Shown here piece after piece: positions 206 to 28,887 of a stretch of 32,000 bases of DNA. Source of the DNA: Chlamydiota bacterium (GTDB lineage: Bacteria > Auribacterota > JACPWU01); contig JACPWU010000020.1 in NCBI GenBank assembly GCA_016196885.1, positions 30,001 through 62,000 of the forward strand, given 5' to 3'. A model generated the notes under the pieces. That model was not told the origin of the DNA and did no database searches. It saw only the letters and a list, made by a program, of their open reading frames with translations. Made by a program: the position numbers and the translations under genes. Positions within the stretch are counted from its first letter, which is position 1. Each line of letters opens with the position of its first letter.

Positions 206-249
206 TAACCCACCTCACCCCGCTTATTTAAGGGGGGAACGGGGGATTA
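206..249. repeat. GC-rich palindromic element, degenerate copy (G1)
   Basis: TAACCCACCTCACCCCGCTTATTTAAGGGGGGAACGGGGGATTA has the same TAAC...hairpin(CCCC..TTA TTT AAGGGG)...GATTA layout as the other copies. It lies in the carB-pyrK spacer. Confidence 0.5.
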
Positions 250-8196: not shown

Positions 8197-8218
8197 TTAA
8201 TCAACCCCATTCGGGCAT

Positions 8219-8318
8219 AAAAAAAGCCCGCTCTTTGAAGAAAGATCAGGCTTCGATAAACGAATAAAAGACCTCATTTTTTCTCCCTTTCCAGCCTCAC
8301 AGGACTGGGATTAAAAGG
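8219..8318 (-). promoter_or_regulatory. PyrR-binding attenuator leader (binding loop plus terminator hairpin and U-run)
   Basis: The minus strand reads CUUUUAAUCCCAGUCCUGUGAGGCUGGAAAGGGAG (8284-8318). This resembles the known PyrR binding-loop motif (..AGUCCAGAGAGGCU..AAGG). It is followed by the hairpin AAGCC..UCUUUCUUCAAAGA..GGCUU and a U7 run ending at 8219, 22 nt upstream of the pyrR ATG. Confidence 0.65.
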
Positions 8319-8364
8319 CAACCTTATTCATCGTATCACCTTGAAATATTTTGTCAATCTTTTT

Positions 8365-10822: not shown

Positions 10823-10965
10823 TAACCCCTCCACCTCCCCTTATGGTTTGCGCCCTGCCGGGCTCCAACCACTTCCTCGTCCACCCGCTGCGACGGGTAC
10901 CCGGACTCGGTCGAAAGGGGAGAGTTTCTCCCCTCTTTAGTTCAAAGAGGGGTTGGGGGAGTTAA
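10823..10965. repeat. GC-rich palindromic element with ~80-nt GC-rich cargo (G2)
   Basis: Termini are TAACCCCTCCACCTCCCC... and ...GAGGGGTTGGGGGAGTTAA, with an internal hairpin CCCCTCTTTAGTTCAAAGAGGGG. It fills the lspA-lgt spacer. Confidence 0.8.
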
Positions 10966-11455
10966 TCTTTTTTTCCTTCAAAAAATATATCCCCAAAAGT
11001 ACCGCCCCTCCTGTAATCGCACTGTCTGCAACATTGAATGTCGGCCACTCGTGGGAGCCGATAAACACCTGAAAGAAATCTATCACAAAATGATACGTGA
11101 TGCGATCCCACAAATTTCCAAGGGCGCCTCCCAAAATCATCCCCAATCCCATCTTCCACAAAATTCCTTTTTTTCCCCATCTAAAATACAAAAATAAAAT
11201 AAGAAGAAGCGAAAAAAGAGTTGTCACTACAAGAAAAAGTCTAGCATTTTTAAAGAGACCAAAAGCGGTTCCCGTATTGTGAACCAAGGCAAGATAAAAA
11301 TAGGGAGGAATCATCTCAATGCGATGTCCTACATTCATCAGCCATTGAGAAAGGAAATGCTTCGTAAATTGATCTAGCAAGAAAATAAAAAGGGTTAAGC
11401 CGAAAAAGAGAACGTGACTTACGCCTTCTTTTTCTTTTCCTGTTCGGATTGGCAT
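10937..11455 (-). CDS. lspA: lipoprotein signal peptidase II
   Basis: Motifs LDQFTK, NTGTAFG and FNVADSAI are present. The start is ambiguous (ATG 11455 or GTG 11464, both overlapping the upstream dksA-like stop). The last 9 aa, INSPNPSLN, are encoded by the repeat terminus. Confidence 0.88.
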   Translation of the reverse strand: MPIRTGKEKEGVSHVLFFGLTLFIFLLDQFTKHFLSQWLMNVGHRIEMIPPYFYLALVHNTGTAFGLFKNARLFLVVTTLFSLLLILFLYFRWGKKGILWKMGLGMILGGALGNLWDRITYHFVIDFFQVFIGSHEWPTFNVADSAITGGAVLLGIYFLKEKKINSPNPSLN

Positions 11456-11844
11456 GGCAGACACAAGGTCGCGTAAGGAACGGCTTCAAGGCGTTTGGCT
11501 GAAATCGGTTTGTCGCACACCTCACAGATTCCAAAGGTCCCTTCATCCATTCTCTTGAGGGCCTCTTCAATCAAATAGAGAATTTCTTGCTCCTGCGTAA
11601 AAATTCCCAAGGCGACACCGCGATCATAATCGTCACTGCTCATGTCTGCCATGTGAATAGAGTAGCCTGACAACTCCCCTGTCATCTCCTTCTGGGATTT
11701 CTGAAGATGATCATCCTTCAAATGGCTAATATCAGAGCTTAAGCGATCACGTTCATCAATCAAAATCTTCTTATATTCCTGAAACTTCGCTTTAGGAAGT
11801 TTACCATTCTTGACTGTTTTTGCTGCTGCTTTCGCTTTAGCCAT
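11419..11844 (-). CDS. DksA/TraR-family C4 zinc-finger protein
   Basis: 141 aa with a coiled-coil N-part and CEVCDKPISAKRLEAVPYATLCLPC (CxxC-x17-CxxC). Confidence 0.85.
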   Translation of the reverse strand: MAKAKAAAKTVKNGKLPKAKFQEYKKILIDERDRLSSDISHLKDDHLQKSQKEMTGELSGYSIHMADMSSDDYDRGVALGIFTQEQEILYLIEEALKRMDEGTFGICEVCDKPISAKRLEAVPYATLCLPCQSEQEKKKKA

Positions 11845-14988: not shown

Positions 14989-15263
14989 TTAACCCCTCCA
15001 ACTCCCCTTAAATAAGGGGAGAGTAAAAAACTCGCTCTTTCGAGTTCCCCTCTTATTTAATTTTAATGATCCTTCGAGATCATCATGTGCGATGAAAGTT
15101 CTCCCCATTATGTTTTTTGTAGTCGCCCGATTCATCGGGCAATCCATGCAAGGGGCACACGGCAGCCCCATAAATGGGGCGACTACAAGGGTGATTTTCA
15201 TCCCCCTTTGTGCCGACCTCAGTCGGCATGAATGTTTCATAGTAAGAGGGGCTAGGGGAGTTA
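14989..15263. repeat. GC-rich palindromic element (G3), interrupted by a nested REPIN-like element
   Basis: TTAACCCCTCCAACTCCCCTTAAATAAGGGGAG...TCCCCTCTTATTTAA | insert | AGTAAGAGGGGCTAGGGGAGTTA. The uninterrupted equivalent, TCCCCTCTTATTTAAGAGGGGCTAGGGGGGTTA, is seen at 28855-28887. Confidence 0.85.
15059..15240 (+). repeat. REPIN-like element, copy A
   Basis: The core GTAGTC-GCCCGATTCATCGGGC-[23 nt]-A-GCCCCATAAATGGGGC-GACTAC spans 15119-15186. Its flanks are conserved with copy B (about 90% identity over the 5' 60 nt). Confidence 0.85.
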
Positions 15264-17288: not shown

Positions 17289-18704
17289 TTAAAACTCCAT
17301 CCTGTTCATCATCAACCCCGTCATCAACTTCGGATAAAAATCTGTGGACTTCTGGGGCATCCTCTCCTGGCCAAAGGCAACATCCTTCACCTGAAGAGGT
17401 TGAGTCGGATTTAAAAAGAAGGCCAGCTGGGACCCCCCTCGATGAACAGCCTCCAAAGCCTCACCTATTTCCCGACAGTAAGAAACGCACGTTTCATTAC
17501 GCACGGCCTCTGGATCAATCCCCAAAACTTTTTCCAAAATTAAATGGTGTAGAACCACAACGTCCAATCCACGCCAGCCCTGAGAATGCTTCTCCTTAAA
17601 GAAATCTTGGGGCACAGAACTTTTAGGATAATGCAAAAGAACAAATTCATCAGAACCATAGTAAAGACCCAAGGTATGCCCCTCTGGGTCTTCCCCTTTC
17701 ATTTTCTCTCGAATGAACTCACTGCGATGATCTTTAGGAAGCTTCAAACGCTTCGGATGAAAATCCTTTTTCAGCAATTCCTGAAGATTCATCATTTTCT
17801 CATCTGAAACATTTCTCACCAAACGATGCGTCGGCAAAATCACCAATCCCTCATCATATAAATTCACAAAGGCCATCATGGCATAATCAAAGGGCTGACT
17901 TCCATCAATACCCCCTCTTAGATAAGAGGGGTCTGGGGAGTTAATTCCATCAATACCCCCTCTTAGATAAGAGGGGTCTGGGGAGTTAATTCCTTTTACC
18001 CCCTGTATCCTCTTGGCCATCTCCTCACGAAAATTGAGTGCTGTCTCATAACGATGATGGCCATCGGCAATCAATAATTTCTTAGATTTCATCAGGGCCT
18101 GCAATTGAGGCAATACCTCTTTGTCATGAATGGCCCACAAGCGATGATCCACTTTATAATCTTTGTCCGTAAAATTAAACATGGCCTGAGTTGGCCGCTT
18201 AGAATTGAGAAGTTCCATCACCTCCTTCTTACGGTCCTCGTAGAGCATAAAAATCAATCCAAAATGAGTTTGAGTAGCCCTCAAATGATTGAGCCGATCC
18301 GCCTTGGGCTTGGAAAGCGTCTCTTCATGGGGATAAACCTCTCCCTCCCCATATTTCTGAAGGAGCCCCAAGGCAATAAAAGCCTGCCTCTTTTTTCTTT
18401 GCCCAAAAACCGTAAACTCCTGATCGTAGCAATAAATCGCGCTCTCTTGATTTTGAACAAAAACACCCGACTTCACCCATTCTTGAAGAAGCTTTCCTTG
18501 AGTCTCATAAGTCGCGGCCACTTTAGAGGCATGAGAAGAGGGCACCTCTTTTAAAATAAGGCGAACGGCATTGCATGGGTCCCGCGTCAGATAGGATTGA
18601 TAAAGCTTGGCATCAATTTTGTCATAAGGTTGAGTAATGACATTTTCTATCTTTATTTTTTTAGAATTGTAATACGTGCCTTTAAAAGGTTTAATCACTG
18701 CCAT
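17289..18704 (-). CDS. DUF1015-family protein carrying an in-frame repeat insertion
   Basis: 471 aa with the conserved LLIADGHHRYETAL and ILPTHRL motifs of DUF1015. Residues GINSPDPSYLRGGID x2 are encoded by a 2 x 45 bp tandem copy of the GC-rich repeat. Confidence 0.75.
   Translation of the reverse strand: MAVIKPFKGTYYNSKKIKIENVITQPYDKIDAKLYQSYLTRDPCNAVRLILKEVPSSHASKVAATYETQGKLLQEWVKSGVFVQNQESAIYCYDQEFTVFGQRKKRQAFIALGLLQKYGEGEVYPHEETLSKPKADRLNHLRATQTHFGLIFMLYEDRKKEVMELLNSKRPTQAMFNFTDKDYKVDHRLWAIHDKEVLPQLQALMKSKKLLIADGHHRYETALNFREEMAKRIQGVKGINSPDPSYLRGGIDGINSPDPSYLRGGIDGSQPFDYAMMAFVNLYDEGLVILPTHRLVRNVSDEKMMNLQELLKKDFHPKRLKLPKDHRSEFIREKMKGEDPEGHTLGLYYGSDEFVLLHYPKSSVPQDFFKEKHSQGWRGLDVVVLHHLILEKVLGIDPEAVRNETCVSYCREIGEALEAVHRGGSQLAFFLNPTQPLQVKDVAFGQERMPQKSTDFYPKLMTGLMMNRMEF
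17901..17990. repeat. perfect 2 x 45 bp tandem of a GC-rich half-element (G4), in-frame inside the DUF1015 CDS
   Basis: TCCATCAATACCCCCTCTTAGATAAGAGGGGTCTGGGGAGTTAAT occurs at 17901-17945 and identically at 17946-17990. Confidence 0.95.
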
Positions 18705-18735: not shown

Positions 18736-18880
18736 TTAACTCCCCCAACCCCTCTTTCCCGTGGAGACTATAAAAGCTTGAAATAAGAGGGGAGTAGACT
18801 CTCCCCTTATTTCAAGTTCTTACAAGATTTTATAGTCCCCGCGGGATAGTCCCTGTGGGAAAGGGGAGTTGGAGGGGTTA
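18736..18880. repeat. GC-rich palindromic element, long nested palindrome (G5)
   Basis: Termini TTAACTCCCCCAACCCCTCTTTCCC and GGGAAAGGGGAGTTGGAGGGGTTA. Inner inverted repeats GGAGACTATAAAA/TTTTATAGTCCCC and CTTGAAATAAGAGGGGA/CTCCCCTTATTTCAAG surround the centre GTAGACT. Confidence 0.9.
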
Positions 18881-19394
18881 TTTTATTCTCCTTCAATCTG
18901 TTCCTCACCCGATTAAAAAACTCTAACGCCCTCTCATCCTTATAGTCCTGATACGTCCAGGGCCAGGGATGAAAAACTTTATCTTTAAAGTAAAGCGTTG
19001 ATTGAGCGTAAATCCCCCGCCCTAAATAAATTCGATACGTTGCAGGCTTGGTGGTTGCTAAAACAATTTTGTCTAGATCAATATAGCCCGGATCAATGTT
19101 CCAAATTCTGTTCTGGCCTGAGGCCTCTTTTAGTTCCATCTCATTGGAAGCCCATTTTAACTCTCGGATATCTTCCGGAGAAATCAATTTCTCGAAGGCA
19201 TAAAAAGAGCGAATTAAATTTGCCCCCAGTTCAGACTCATAATATTTTGTAAAATCAAAGGGGAAAGGCTCCATTTGATCTTCAAAAGGGCCCCACGCCT
19301 GCTCTAAAAGACCCTCCACCTCTTTTAATCGGGATGGCGCTACAATCACGGCCGCAAAAAGCTTGACTGGCTCAGGAAATCGAGGGGCTCCCAT
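18807..19394 (-). CDS. DUF4416-family protein with repeat-encoded C-terminal tail
   Basis: FDFTKYYESELG...NIDPGYIDLDKIVLATTK...YRIYLGRGIYAQSTL...WTYQDY matches my memory of DUF4416. The last 24 aa (ITPPTPLSHRDYPAGTIKSCKNLK) are read from the repeat at 18736-18880. Confidence 0.6.
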   Translation of the reverse strand: MGAPRFPEPVKLFAAVIVAPSRLKEVEGLLEQAWGPFEDQMEPFPFDFTKYYESELGANLIRSFYAFEKLISPEDIRELKWASNEMELKEASGQNRIWNIDPGYIDLDKIVLATTKPATYRIYLGRGIYAQSTLYFKDKVFHPWPWTYQDYKDERALEFFNRVRNRLKENKITPPTPLSHRDYPAGTIKSCKNLK

Positions 19395-24842: not shown

Positions 24843-25072
24843 CAATAACAAATGTCAAATAAATCTCCAATTCTCCAATGTCCAATTGGATATTGAGTCA
24901 TGGGTCATTCATTTGCTATGAAAGTGAAGCTCATTCTGTAGTCGCCCCATTTATGGGGCTGCCCGATGAATCGGGCGACTACAAAAAAAGCATGATGGGG
25001 AGAACTTTCATCGCACACGATGATCTCGAAAGATCATTAAAATTGATATTTGAAATTGGAAATTTGTCATTG
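24843..25072. repeat. AT-rich word-array palindrome (E3) wrapping REPIN-like copy B
   Basis: The left arm is CTCCAATT CTCCAATG TCCAATTG (24865-24888). The right arm is ATTGATA TTTGAAA TTGGAAA TTTGTCA (25042-25069). The outer ends CAATAACAAAT and ATTTGTCATTG are complementary. It fills the purF-purM spacer. Confidence 0.7.
24900..25044 (-). repeat. REPIN-like element, copy B (inverted relative to copy A)
   Basis: The reverse complement aligns with 15059-15240. The core GTAGTCGCCCCATTTATGGGGCTGCCCGATGAATCGGGCGACTAC spans 24938-24982. It lacks the two 23-25 nt segments present in copy A. Confidence 0.85.
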
Positions 25073-28814: not shown

Positions 28815-28887
28815 TTAACCCCCCTAGCCCCCCTTAAAATAAGGGGGGAACTACTCCCCTCTTATTTAAGAGGGGCTAGGGGGGTTA
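28815..28887. repeat. GC-rich palindromic element, minimal 73-bp form (G6)
   Basis: TTAACCCCCCTAGCCCCCCTTAAAATAAGGGGGGAACTACTCCCCTCTTATTTAAGAGGGGCTAGGGGGGTTA. The outer arms are perfect complements and there are two inner hairpins. It fills the purQ-purL spacer to within 1 nt of the purL ATG. Confidence 0.92.

What the first reader, a model, noticed from the sequence alone, without database searches (positions are those of the whole stretch)
17901..17990. Perfect 2 x 45 bp tandem of a repeat half-element inserted in frame in the DUF1015 gene
TCCATCAATACCCCCTCTTAGATAAGAGGGGTCTGGGGAGTTAAT is present twice, back to back and without a single mismatch. It adds GINSPDPSYLRGGID x2 between the conserved ADGHHRYETAL and ILPTHRL motifs.

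The unit is the hairpin-2 plus right-terminus half of the intergenic GC-rich element (compare TCCCCTCTTATTTAAGAGGGGCTAGGGGAGTTA). Its hairpin loop reads TTAGATAA instead of TTATTTAA/TTAAATAA. In the gene's frame that gives TAT CTA AGA instead of an in-frame TAA, so the ORF stays open.

The same repeat terminus encodes the similar peptides INSPNPSLN (lspA tail) and ITPPTPLSH (DUF4416 tail). This recalls the Rickettsia palindromic elements that live in frame inside protein genes. The zero divergence between the two units suggests a very recent duplication or ongoing expansion/contraction.
Basis: partly seen in the sequence, partly recalled or inferred. Interest (0 to 1): 0.8.

Follow-up and report, generated by a model that had tools for sequence, protein, structure and literature searches.

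The report
Triplex-type repeat duplicated inside DUF1015 gene
Two identical 45-bp copies of a small GC-rich "hairpin plus mirrored tail" repeat lie in frame inside an otherwise normal DUF1015 gene of an uncultured chlamydia, adding 30 amino acids to a floppy surface loop; the same kind of repeat is read through in frame in genes of several other bacterial phyla.

Summary
Window 17900-17993 is a perfect 45-bp x 2.1 tandem inside the intact 471-aa DUF1015 ORF (17289-18704, minus strand). It adds GINSPDPSYLRGGID twice (residues 238-267). None of 20 aligned homologues, including two syntenic chlamydial relatives, has this segment. It coincides with the only long low-confidence loop of a confident AlphaFold model.

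The unit is one "half" module of the dispersed GC-rich elements in the window (five full copies) plus 11 nt. Only one of its six reading frames lacks a stop, and that is the frame the gene uses.

New here: this "half" is the basic unit of a family found across phyla. It is a 9-bp hairpin, a 3-nt linker, then a tail that mirrors the hairpin arm (89 of 103 independent modules; shuffles reach at most 42). That is the architecture of the class II intrastrand triplex motifs (TM/PIT) described in E. coli. About 5% of modules are read through in frame elsewhere, in UvrA (three elements), UvrC, TGT and Mfd of CPR bacteria, in ORFs on viral contigs, and in another chlamydial gene.

Best reading: a tolerated selfish-DNA insertion, like the Rickettsia palindromic elements, followed by a recent slippage duplication. 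How the module moves is unknown: no transposase was found and target duplications are unresolved.

The parts
17289..18704 (-). DUF1015 gene, intact 471-aa ORF that hosts the insertion
   Evidence: ORF list. Pfam PF06245 E=2.6e-78, profile positions 1-324 of 325. All invariant family columns are kept. AF2 mean pLDDT 86.1, pTM 0.85.
17900..17944 (-). Repeat unit 1 (45 bp; + strand TTCCATCAATACCCCCTCTTAGATAAGAGGGGTCTGGGGAGTTAA); encodes 15 aa in frame on the - strand
   Evidence: TRF and the repeat finder, 100% identity. Only 1 of 6 frames is open, and it is the gene's frame.
17945..17989 (-). Repeat unit 2, identical to unit 1
17990..17993 (.). Third copy of TTCC (GGAA on the coding strand): a 4-bp direct repeat at all three junctions, either a possible target duplication or a slippage microhomology
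   Evidence: Read directly from the sequence. TRF extends the array to 17993.
17912..17931 (.). Hairpin of unit 1: CCCCTCTTA-GA-TAAGAGGGG
   Evidence: Pattern search; fold.
17935..17943 (+). Tail of unit 1: GGGGAGTTA. GGGGAG is the mirror image of the arm GAGGGG, separated by the 3-nt linker TCT.
   Evidence: the mirror rule across the family
17957..17976 (.). Hairpin of unit 2
17980..17988 (+). Tail of unit 2: GGGGAGTTA
206..249 (.). Element A: minimal 44-bp single long palindrome of the family (TAACCCACC...GGGGGATTA)
10823..10964 (.). Element B: full beta+alpha element with a GC-rich insert in the beta hairpin loop. It lies between lgt and lspA, and its right terminus encodes the last residues and the stop of lspA.
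14990..15263 (.). Element C: full beta+alpha element whose alpha hairpin loop carries a nested, different repeat (GTAG-tagged)
18737..18880 (.). Element D: full element in inverted orientation with enlarged loops, 32 nt upstream of the DUF1015 start. It supplies the C-terminal ~25 codons and the stop of DUF4416.
   Evidence: Relatives have only 72-bp and 13-bp gaps here.
28816..28887 (.). Element E: compact 72-bp beta-like + alpha element, the best reference copy

Best explanation
The 90 bp are selfish repeat DNA that entered a permissive spot in the DUF1015 coding sequence and then doubled.

Shown:
- The unit is one copy of the genome's GC-rich 'hairpin + 3-nt linker + mirrored tail' module plus 11 nt.
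- It sits in the only one of its six frames that has no stop, and its length is a multiple of three.
- It falls in a length-variable, predicted-disordered loop just after helix 216-237. The rest of the gene is intact and keeps every invariant residue.
- The same module family is spread through this window and through many phyla, and it is read through in frame in other real genes.

Inferred:
- One module was inserted by the still unknown process that disperses these modules, leaving or using TTCC at the junctions.
- Only insertions in this orientation and frame survive selection.
- The unit then duplicated head-to-tail, most likely by replication slippage or unequal exchange between the flanking TTCC repeats. 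The stable hairpin, or a transient intrastrand triplex, would favour this when the DNA is single-stranded.
- The protein is translated through the insert and tolerates 30 extra loop residues rich in Gly, Pro, Ser, Asn and Asp.
- The insert is a neutral or nearly neutral passenger rather than an adaptation.
For: - Perfect tandem.
- Absent from all 20 aligned homologues; removing exactly 90 bp restores colinearity.
- Absent from the syntenic chlamydial relatives L232 and L234.
- The insert (238-267) coincides with the only long low-pLDDT segment (238-266) in a model with pLDDT 86 and pTM 0.85.
- Only one of six frames is open, and it is the frame used.
- The arm and tail are identical to those of in-window copy C. 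There are five full elements in 32 kb, and two other genes (lspA, DUF4416) end inside elements in the same frame.
- Family-wide mirror rule: 89 of 103 modules not selected by the search patterns, against a shuffle mean of 25.5 and maximum of 42.
- This is the architecture of the TM motifs that form triplexes in vitro and mark variable loci in E. coli (PMC4666352).
- 15 of 306 modules lie in frames open for at least 80 codons on both sides. These include UvrA (three elements), UvrC, TGT and Mfd, confirmed by Pfam, and a 1223-aa gene of a related chlamydial MAG.
- Tandem amplification of full elements occurs elsewhere: L096, 148 bp x 4.7.
- The same 471-aa protein is deposited under two NCBI accessions on two contigs.
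- The peptide has no counterpart among 1.84 billion representative proteins.
Against: - No reads, transcripts or peptides were available, so translation through the insert and the copy number are not directly shown.
- The insertion mechanism is unknown. No transposase lies between inverted halves, no autonomous partner was found, and target-site duplication is unresolved.
- The 11 nt TTCCATCAATA are not explained by the in-window elements. They weakly resemble a 3' extension seen in a Nitrospirota-type lineage.
- Triplex formation is inferred from sequence only. For the E. coli TM it was seen in vitro but not in vivo (PMC4666352).
- The two NCBI records may not be independent assemblies.
- Neutrality is assumed, not tested.
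Confidence: 0.72

Rival explanations
1. Assembly artefact: the true sequence has one unit (or none), and the second was created by mis-assembly of a repeat.
For: The source is a short-read MAG, and the element family is repetitive in the genome. No independent contig could be fetched.
Against: The periodic stretch is only 94 bp. Any k-mer longer than about 49, or a single read of 100-150 nt, spans it unambiguously (inference). The result keeps the reading frame exactly. The identical 471-aa protein is on record under two accessions on two contigs.
Confidence: 0.05
2. Adaptive, variable-length linker: the tandem is a contingency-type coding minisatellite. Its copy number changes by slippage and tunes DUF1015 activity or interactions.
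For: There is zero divergence between the units. The motif type is linked to local genomic variability in E. coli (PMC4666352). Full elements are amplified in tandem in L096. The insert lies 16 residues after the invariant ADGHHRYETA motif.
Against: No polymorphism is on record: the cluster has one member and both accessions are identical. The loop is predicted disordered and varies in length among homologues. The peptide is found nowhere else. Two copies are too few to argue for a switch.
Confidence: 0.1
3. The insert is not translated. Ribosomes hop from the GGA before the insert to the GGA after it, as in T4 gene 60 or the mitochondrial 'byp' elements, or the RNA segment is removed.
For: A GGA codon precedes each unit and follows the last one (GGA-ATT...GAT-GGA-ATT...GAT-GGA-AGT), and each unit holds a stable hairpin. 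Take-off/landing codon pairing is a feature of known bypass elements (own knowledge).
Against: There is no stop or rare codon after the take-off codon. The unit length is a multiple of 3 and the only open frame is in register, which bypassing would not require. In other phyla the modules are likewise open in frame.
Confidence: 0.03
4. The gene is functionally dead or dying: the insertion disrupted DUF1015, and the ORF is open only because the event is recent.
For: The duplication seems recent. The insertion lies close to the conserved ADGHHRYETA helix.
Against: All invariant columns are retained, the Pfam match is full length, and the fold is predicted with confidence. Synteny with the operon neighbours is kept. 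Essential repair genes in CPR bacteria carry up to three such inserts, which shows such inserts are tolerated.
Confidence: 0.07
5. The module is primarily a functional RNA or DNA signal (an RBS cassette, terminator or protein-binding site), and the copy inside the gene acts as a regulatory site within the DUF1015 mRNA.
For: In contigs classed as viral, and in Chloroflexota and CPR genomes, the module sits just before genes. Its GGGGAG tail is placed like a Shine-Dalgarno sequence, or its GTTATG supplies the start codon; 66 of 126 copies continue with TG. The mirror covariation implies selection on structure.
Against: In DUF1015 the mRNA carries the C-rich strand, so there is no SD or ATG in the sense direction. 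The fold z-score is only -2.0. Terminator-like hits are not enriched (32 against 24.4 +/- 5.5). There is no Rfam family.
Confidence: 0.03

Closest known systems
G/C-rich class II intrastrand triplex motifs (TM, earlier 'PIT' elements) of E. coli and other bacteria (Holder et al. 2015, PMC4666352; Hoyne et al. 2000 recalled from memory)
   Same: The strand layout is identical: a pyrimidine arm, a short loop, a purine arm, a 3-nt linker, then a second purine domain that mirrors the first. Compare TM_ECO (CCCTCNCCC-N3-6-GGGNGAGGG-N3-GGGNGAGGG) with the form found here (CCCCTCTTA-N2-3-TAAGAGGGG-N3-GGGGAGTTA). Both have about 9-nt domains and many copies per genome, occur singly or as inverted pairs, and have no associated transposase. 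Both are linked to local sequence instability.
   Different: The sequence is different (TAA/TTA-flanked, with a TAAC/GTTA tag). TM_ECO is 'always intergenic' and was not found on phages, whereas this family is read through in frame in genes and occurs on viral contigs. Here a unit is tandemly duplicated inside a gene. Triplex formation was not measured for this sequence.
Rickettsia palindromic elements (RPE; Ogata et al. 2000, as summarised in PMC10969869 and PMC3733652)
   Same: Both are palindromic repeats dispersed in a genome of an obligate intracellular lineage. Both are inserted in frame in unrelated, apparently functional genes and add a conserved peptide at tolerated sites.
   Different: RPEs are about 100-150 bp, restricted to Rickettsia and unrelated in sequence. 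The unit here is 45 bp (34-nt module plus 11 nt), has a mirror-repeat tail, is tandemly doubled, and belongs to a family spread over many phyla.
Bacterial MITEs that fuse to host ORFs (QMITE1 of Coxiella, PMC5896051; intragenic ERIC; RUP, Correia)
   Same: They are small, non-coding and multi-copy, have inverted termini, are sometimes nested, and sometimes extend or interrupt ORFs in frame.
   Different: No autonomous IS partner and no clear target-site duplication were found. The termini of the two halves are not true inverted repeats of each other; each half is instead internally mirror-symmetric.
REP / BIME / REPIN elements mobilised by RAYT transposases (PMC3733652)
   Same: Both have a short GC-rich hairpin with a conserved tag at one end, occur singly or as inverted doublets, and are mostly extragenic.
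   Different: The tag is TAAC/GTTA, not GTAG or CGTC. The mirror tail is absent from REPs. No RAYT association was tested. A separate GTAG-tagged repeat does exist in this window (15113-15188, 24929-24991).

Membership tests
Intrastrand triplex motif (TM/PIT), class II | Three consecutive domains on one strand: pyrimidine arm, purine arm, second purine (reverse-Hoogsteen) domain, with short loops (N3-6 and N3) | tested here: met
   CCCCTCTTA-GA-TAAGAGGGG-TCT-GGGGAGTTA at 17912-17943 and 17957-17988. Definition from PMC4666352.
Intrastrand triplex motif (TM/PIT), class II | The third domain is antiparallel-identical (a mirror) to the purine arm, allowing G.G-C, A.A-T and T.A-T triads | tested here: met
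   GAGGGG mirrors GGGGAG in the unit. Family-wide, 89 of 103 independent modules are perfect mirrors in 5 co-varying variants; shuffles reach at most 42, and the direct-repeat control gives 4.
Intrastrand triplex motif (TM/PIT), class II | Actual triplex formation (CD or NMR signatures in vitro) | not testable with these tools
   Needs spectroscopy of the oligonucleotide. ViennaRNA folds model hairpins only.
TM_ECO (the E. coli TM sequence family) | Consensus CCCTCNCCC N3-6 GGGNGAGGG N3 GGGNGAGGG; always intergenic | tested here: not met
   The domain sequence differs and this copy lies inside a gene. It has the same architecture but is not the same sequence family.
Rickettsia palindromic elements (RPE) | In-frame insertion of a palindromic repeat into functional genes at tolerated sites | tested here: met
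Rickettsia palindromic elements (RPE) | Membership of one of the RPE sequence families (~100-150 bp, Rickettsia) | tested here: not met
   The unit is 45 bp, the host is a chlamydial MAG, and nothing in Rfam matches. No RPE consensus was available for a direct alignment, so the comparison rests on size and host.
MITE | Terminal inverted repeats | tested here: inconclusive
   Full elements start with TAAC and end with GTTA, with C-rich and G-rich runs. But the left and right runs differ (CCCCTCC against the reverse complement TCCCCC). The DUF1015 unit has only one terminus.
MITE | Target-site duplication | tested here: inconclusive
   TTCC flanks each DUF1015 unit. Junctions of clean in-frame copies in L100, L038 and L007 give no consistent duplication, and TA could be hidden inside TAAC/GTTA. 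No empty sites were available.
MITE | A related autonomous IS with the same ends | tested here: not met
   Among 31 adjacent inverted half pairs, the 3 with 0.7-1.7 kb between them enclose ordinary genes or no ORF. The search covered only the loci that had been fetched.
REP/REPIN (RAYT-associated) | GTAG or CGTC tag next to the hairpin | tested here: not met
   The tag is TAAC/GTTA. Definition from PMC3733652.
Programmed translational bypass elements (T4 gene 60, mitochondrial byps) | Matched take-off and landing codons, plus a stop or unreadable codon after take-off, with no need for an open frame | tested here: not met
   Matched GGA codons are present, but the insert is open in frame, is a multiple of 3 and has no stop after the take-off codon. 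The defining features are recalled from own knowledge.

The most novel reading that the evidence does not exclude
The DUF1015 unit may be a member of a previously undescribed family of triplex-type modules (hairpin plus mirror tail) that spans many phyla and moves by an unknown, transposase-independent route. The family colonises coding sequence in its single permissive frame: UvrA (three elements), UvrC, Mfd and TGT in CPR bacteria, large ORFs on viral contigs, and DUF1015 plus a 1223-aa gene in Chlamydiae. In Chloroflexota-type viral contigs it also doubles as a portable SD/start-codon cassette. The strict mirror covariation would then mean that the triplex, or a factor that reads it, is under selection. 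On this reading the perfect tandem in DUF1015 captures the family in the act of expanding inside a gene.
Probability: 0.3. Interest if true: 0.8.

Novelty: new variant of a known kind. Interest (0 to 1): 0.62.

Why it matters
In-frame palindromic 'selfish DNA' is best known from Rickettsia (RPEs). In E. coli, the triplex-type repeats were reported as strictly intergenic and not linked to mobile elements.

This locus links the two observations. A triplex-type module sits in a chlamydial gene in the only frame that keeps the gene open, and it has just duplicated. Following it outward shows the same module family in Nitrospirota, Chloroflexota, CPR/Patescibacteria, Thermodesulfobacteriota and viral contigs. 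It is often read through in essential genes.

If this holds up, there would be a widespread, structure-defined source of protein loop insertions and of gene starts in uncultured bacteria. It would also give a natural system for testing whether intrastrand triplexes drive duplication and dispersal in vivo.

For annotation, it warns that such 15-30 aa GC-rich inserts in MAG proteins are real repeat-derived sequence, not necessarily errors.

Tried and rejected
- Fetching the contig that encodes the exact protein failed; it is not on record.
- A PDB sequence search found nothing.
- Exhaustive HMMER with the 30-aa insert gave 7 weak hits, all unrelated repetitive proteins.
- Rfam at gathering and permissive thresholds gave only spurious miRNA-hairpin hits on the element.
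- A literature search for the DNA words and the peptide words found nothing relevant, and nothing for CPR plus palindromic in-frame inserts.
- The search for an autonomous transposon between inverted halves found only ordinary genes.
- Target-site duplications at clean in-frame junctions were inconclusive.
- My first mirror statistic, in a fixed register, was not significant (302 of 2000 shuffles). The linker/tail boundary was mis-set; anchoring on the conserved TAA and TTA gave the clear result.
- The 11 nt TTCCATCAATA matched a 3' extension in only 11 of 382 other modules, all from one lineage, so this stays unresolved.
- Annotated phage and plasmid collections gave no match.
- The terminator scan showed no significant enrichment.
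- An attC (integron) reading was considered and rejected, because the AAC/GTT triplets are outermost here rather than innermost.
- A Tn3-type GGGG...TAAG end was rejected on length, and because the 5 nt outside GGGG are inverted rather than direct repeats. Both rejections rest on my own knowledge of those families.
Full report
OBSERVATION. The window sequence at 17900-17993 is a perfect head-to-tail repeat of the 45-bp unit TTCCATCAATACCCCCTCTTAGATAAGAGGGGTCTGGGGAGTTAA. Tandem Repeats Finder gives period 45, 2.1 copies, 100% matches and score 188. The raw sequence shows it directly, and the repeat finder family D6 agrees. TTCC occurs before unit 1, between the units and after unit 2, so the phase is ambiguous over 4 nt. 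It lies inside ORF 17289..18704 on the minus strand (471 aa). That ORF is a full-length DUF1015 protein (PF06245, E=2.6e-78, profile positions 1-324 of 325). The array encodes GINSPDPSYLRGGID twice, at residues 238-267.

IT IS AN INSERTION IN A TOLERANT LOOP.
- The exact protein is on record as a chlamydial MAG protein. The nearest other proteins are only 54-60% identical and 434-453 aa long.
- In an alignment with 20 homologues, from close to distant, none has the 30 residues.
- The insert sits in a segment that already varies in length, between the invariant ADGHHRYETA motif and the conserved DYAMMAFVNLYD.
- Removing exactly 90 bp gives ...QGVK|GSQPFDY, colinear with P0002 ...KSKSGTQPFDY.
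- Two relatives keep the same gene order (GHL10, DUF4416, DUF1015, two small ORFs, YggS-like) and have no insert.
- An AlphaFold2 model built on that alignment is confident (mean pLDDT 86.1, pTM 0.85). Its only long low-confidence stretch, 238-266, is the insert, directly after helix 216-237.
- The core fold resembles free serine kinase and SbnI; this is context only.
- All columns that are invariant in the family are kept, so nothing suggests a pseudogene.

WHAT THE UNIT IS. The window (44% G+C) holds five complete GC-rich elements: 206-249, 10823-10964, 14990-15263, 18737-18880 and 28816-28887.
- Each complete element starts with TAAC and ends with GTTA, and is made of two 'halves'.
- A half is a 9-bp hairpin closed by TTA/TAA, a 2-3 nt linker, and a G-rich tail that ends in TTA.
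- The DUF1015 unit is one such half (CCCCTCTTA-GA-TAAGAGGGG-TCT-GGGGAGTTA) plus 11 nt (TTCCATCAATA).
- Its arm and tail are identical to those of the copy at 15243-15263; only the linker differs.
lspA (10937..11464, minus strand) ends ...KKINSPNPSLN* inside element B. DUF4416 (18807..19394, minus strand) has a Pfam match only to residue 166 of 195, and its tail ITPPTPLSH... comes from element D.
- In the relatives the DUF4416-DUF1015 gap is only 72 or 13 bp, so element D is itself an insertion in this lineage.

WHY THE GENE STAYS OPEN. Translating the unit in all six frames shows stops in five. The single open frame, NSPDPSYLRGGIDGI, is the one DUF1015 uses. In that same register the intergenic copy E reads NPPSPS*IRGE, with a TAA in the hairpin loop. 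The unit length of 45 is a multiple of three. This is what survivorship predicts: insertions in any other orientation, phase or loop variant would truncate the protein and be lost.

THE MODULE IS NOT PRIVATE TO THIS GENOME.
They come from Nitrospirota, Dehalococcoidia and other Chloroflexota, Patescibacteria (CPR), Thermodesulfobacteriota, Gammaproteobacteria and others, often with several copies per MAG.
- About 17 chance hits would be expected for 18 specified bases (my estimate).
- Nearly every hit also has the upstream hairpin arm CCCCTCTTA, which was not in the pattern. These are therefore homologous modules, not chance matches.
- The window's 2-nt-loop subtype occurs at 81 metagenome loci, and the general motif at 36 loci on viral contigs.
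- Three architectures recur: a minimal palindrome of about 48 bp that shares one hairpin, the two-hairpin form of 72-85 bp, and solitary halves.
- In a related chlamydial MAG two halves lie tail to tail. In L096 whole elements form a 148-bp x 4.7 tandem array.
- The 'half' is therefore the basic unit of the family.

THE MIRROR RULE AND THE CLOSEST KNOWN KIND.
- The test used 103 distinct modules from 78 loci that were not selected by my search patterns. In 89 of them, the six bases after the hairpin's TAA are the exact mirror image of the six bases before the terminal TTA.
- Five co-varying variants occur: GGGGGA/AGGGGG, GGGGAG/GAGGGG, GAGGGG/GGGGAG, GAGGGA/AGGGAG and GGGAGG/GGAGGG.
- Shuffling tails among modules gives a mean of 25.5 and a maximum of 42 in 5000 trials. 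A direct-repeat control gives 4 of 103. An earlier fixed-register score had missed this.
- A pyrimidine arm, a purine arm and a mirrored purine domain on one strand, with a 3-nt second loop, is the definition of a class II intrastrand triplex motif.
- Holder et al. 2015 (PMC4666352) describe the E. coli version, CCCTCNCCC-N3-6-GGGNGAGGG-N3-GGGNGAGGG, with 23 copies in MG1655, some as inverted pairs.
- Their motif forms a triplex in vitro. It was not detected in vivo, has no link to transposons, phages or plasmids, is 'always' intergenic, and is associated with locally elevated sequence variability.
- The module here has the same architecture but a different sequence. It is the same kind of motif, but not a member of the E. 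coli TM_ECO sequence family.
- Nothing in Rfam matches it, and I found no paper that holds the motif or its peptides.

IN-FRAME CARRIAGE IS RECURRENT. Of 306 distinct modules, 15 lie in frames that are open for at least 80 codons on both sides (an earlier, narrower test is). The hosts are real genes.
- In one Uhrbacteria MAG, UvrA carries three complete elements (for example HNPPQPSLTLREGDRSVPPLRVRGGAGGV) and UvrC carries one.
- In another Uhrbacteria MAG, TGT carries one, and its Pfam match is split into three stretches.
- In a Giovannonibacteria MAG, Mfd carries one, between its UvrB-interaction and RID domains.
- Other hosts are two large ORFs on a viral contig, a giant ORF in Auribacterota, and a 1223-aa gene in the chlamydial relative L232.
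- On the C-rich strand the frame is the one used in DUF1015: xxT-AAC gives N, followed by [PS]-P-x-P-[SL]...L-R-[GE]-G.
- The specific DUF1015 peptide has no counterpart among 1.84 billion representative proteins. It is a lineage-specific passenger, not a protein domain.

MECHANISM: SHOWN AND INFERRED.
- Shown: the identity of the unit, its frame, its position in a loop, its absence from relatives, and the family's tendency to sit in genes and to amplify in tandem.
- Inferred: one module entered the gene by the unknown process that disperses the family. The unit then doubled by replication slippage or unequal exchange between the TTCC repeats, helped by the hairpin or by a transient triplex in single-stranded DNA. 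The protein is translated through the insert.
- I could not identify a mobilising enzyme. None of the inverted half pairs that were checked encloses a transposase.
- Junctions of clean in-frame copies give no consistent target duplication.
- The 11 extra nucleotides resemble a 3' extension (T[TC]CAATCAAT) found in 11 Nitrospirota-type copies. This stays unresolved.

RIVALS.
- Assembly artefact is unlikely. The periodic stretch is 94 bp and is spanned by single reads or long k-mers (inference), and the same protein is deposited twice. It cannot be excluded without reads.
- An adaptive, length-variable linker is possible but has no support from polymorphism.
- Translational bypass is suggested by the GGA codon repeated at each junction. 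It is made unnecessary by the open frame and the multiple-of-three length.
- A regulatory RNA role is plausible for other family members. In viral contigs and in Chloroflexota and CPR genomes the module sits just before genes. There its GGGGAG tail is placed like a Shine-Dalgarno sequence, or its GTTATG supplies the start codon, as for RNase HII in three MAGs. This does not apply to the copy in DUF1015, where the mRNA carries the C-rich strand.

VERDICT. It is a new variant of known kinds, combining in-frame selfish repeats like the RPEs with intrastrand triplex motifs. It belongs to a family, apparently undescribed, that is spread across phyla. Interest: 0.62.

Noticed in passing
window 15059-15240 and 24856-25066: A second, unrelated repeat family. 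It has GTAG-tagged hairpins in inverted pairs (TTTTGTAGTCGCCCGATTCATCGGGC / GCCCCATAAATGGGGCGACTACAA), resembling REP/REPIN elements, flanked by 60-nt arms that are 93% complementary between the two loci. The copy at ~15059-15240 is nested inside the alpha hairpin loop of element C (families D7, D16, I1, I4, I5).
   Followed up: partly
L210, L211, L216, L219, L222, L217, L221, L209 (viral contigs); L043, L046, L084 (Chloroflexota MAGs): Solitary modules sit directly upstream of successive genes. The GGGGAG tail is placed like a Shine-Dalgarno sequence (GGGGAGTTATGAAATG...), or the module's own GTTATG is the start codon, as for RNase HII in three MAGs. In 66 of 126 copies GTTA is followed by TG, against about 8 expected.
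   Followed up: partly
L100 (Uhrbacteria MAG JACPJN010000009.1), L038, L003: In CPR bacteria, UvrA carries three complete elements in frame, UvrC one, TGT one and Mfd one. The insert peptides are conserved, of the type HNPPQPSLTLREG...PLRVRG..G.
   Followed up: yes
L232 15690-15775 (chlamydial MAG GCA_016178055.1): An alpha half and a beta half lie tail to tail, 10 nt apart. They are read in frame (SPLKLRGAGGV-MEEV-NNPTDSPYIKGRE) inside a called 1223-aa gene that has no Pfam match.
   Followed up: partly
L096 5972-6670 (Desulfuromonadaceae MAG): A tandem array of 4.7 copies of a 148-bp unit, 97% matches. Each unit holds a complete two-hairpin element. An Acido-Lenti-1 RNA match just below its gathering score lies nearby.
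   Followed up: no
window 17900-17910 / 17945-17955; L016, L039, L097, L098, L112, L187 and others: The 11 nt of the unit that the in-window elements do not explain (TTCCATCAATA) resemble the conserved sequence T[TC]CAATCAAT that follows GTTA in 11 Nitrospirota-type copies. There it continues into a longer shared repeat (TCCAATCAATCCGTCATTCAAACCCTTTCTATTCCTTA...).
   Followed up: partly
window 10841-10913, 18757-18783, 18810-18860: Three of the five full elements have extra sequence inside their hairpin loops. In element D the two loop inserts are inverted copies of each other (family I6). The TTA/TAA loops may be insertion hot spots.
   Followed up: no
window 8217-8322 (-): A PyrR binding site (RF00515) scores 60.2 bits, above its gathering score of 54. 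It is unrelated to the finding.
   Followed up: no
window 18737-18760 relative to the DUF1015 start at 18704: Element D ends 32 nt upstream of the DUF1015 start codon. On the coding strand it is followed by a T-rich run (GGGGGAGTTAAATGGTTTTTATTTG), so it may affect read-through or expression between DUF4416 and DUF1015. This was not tested.
   Followed up: no
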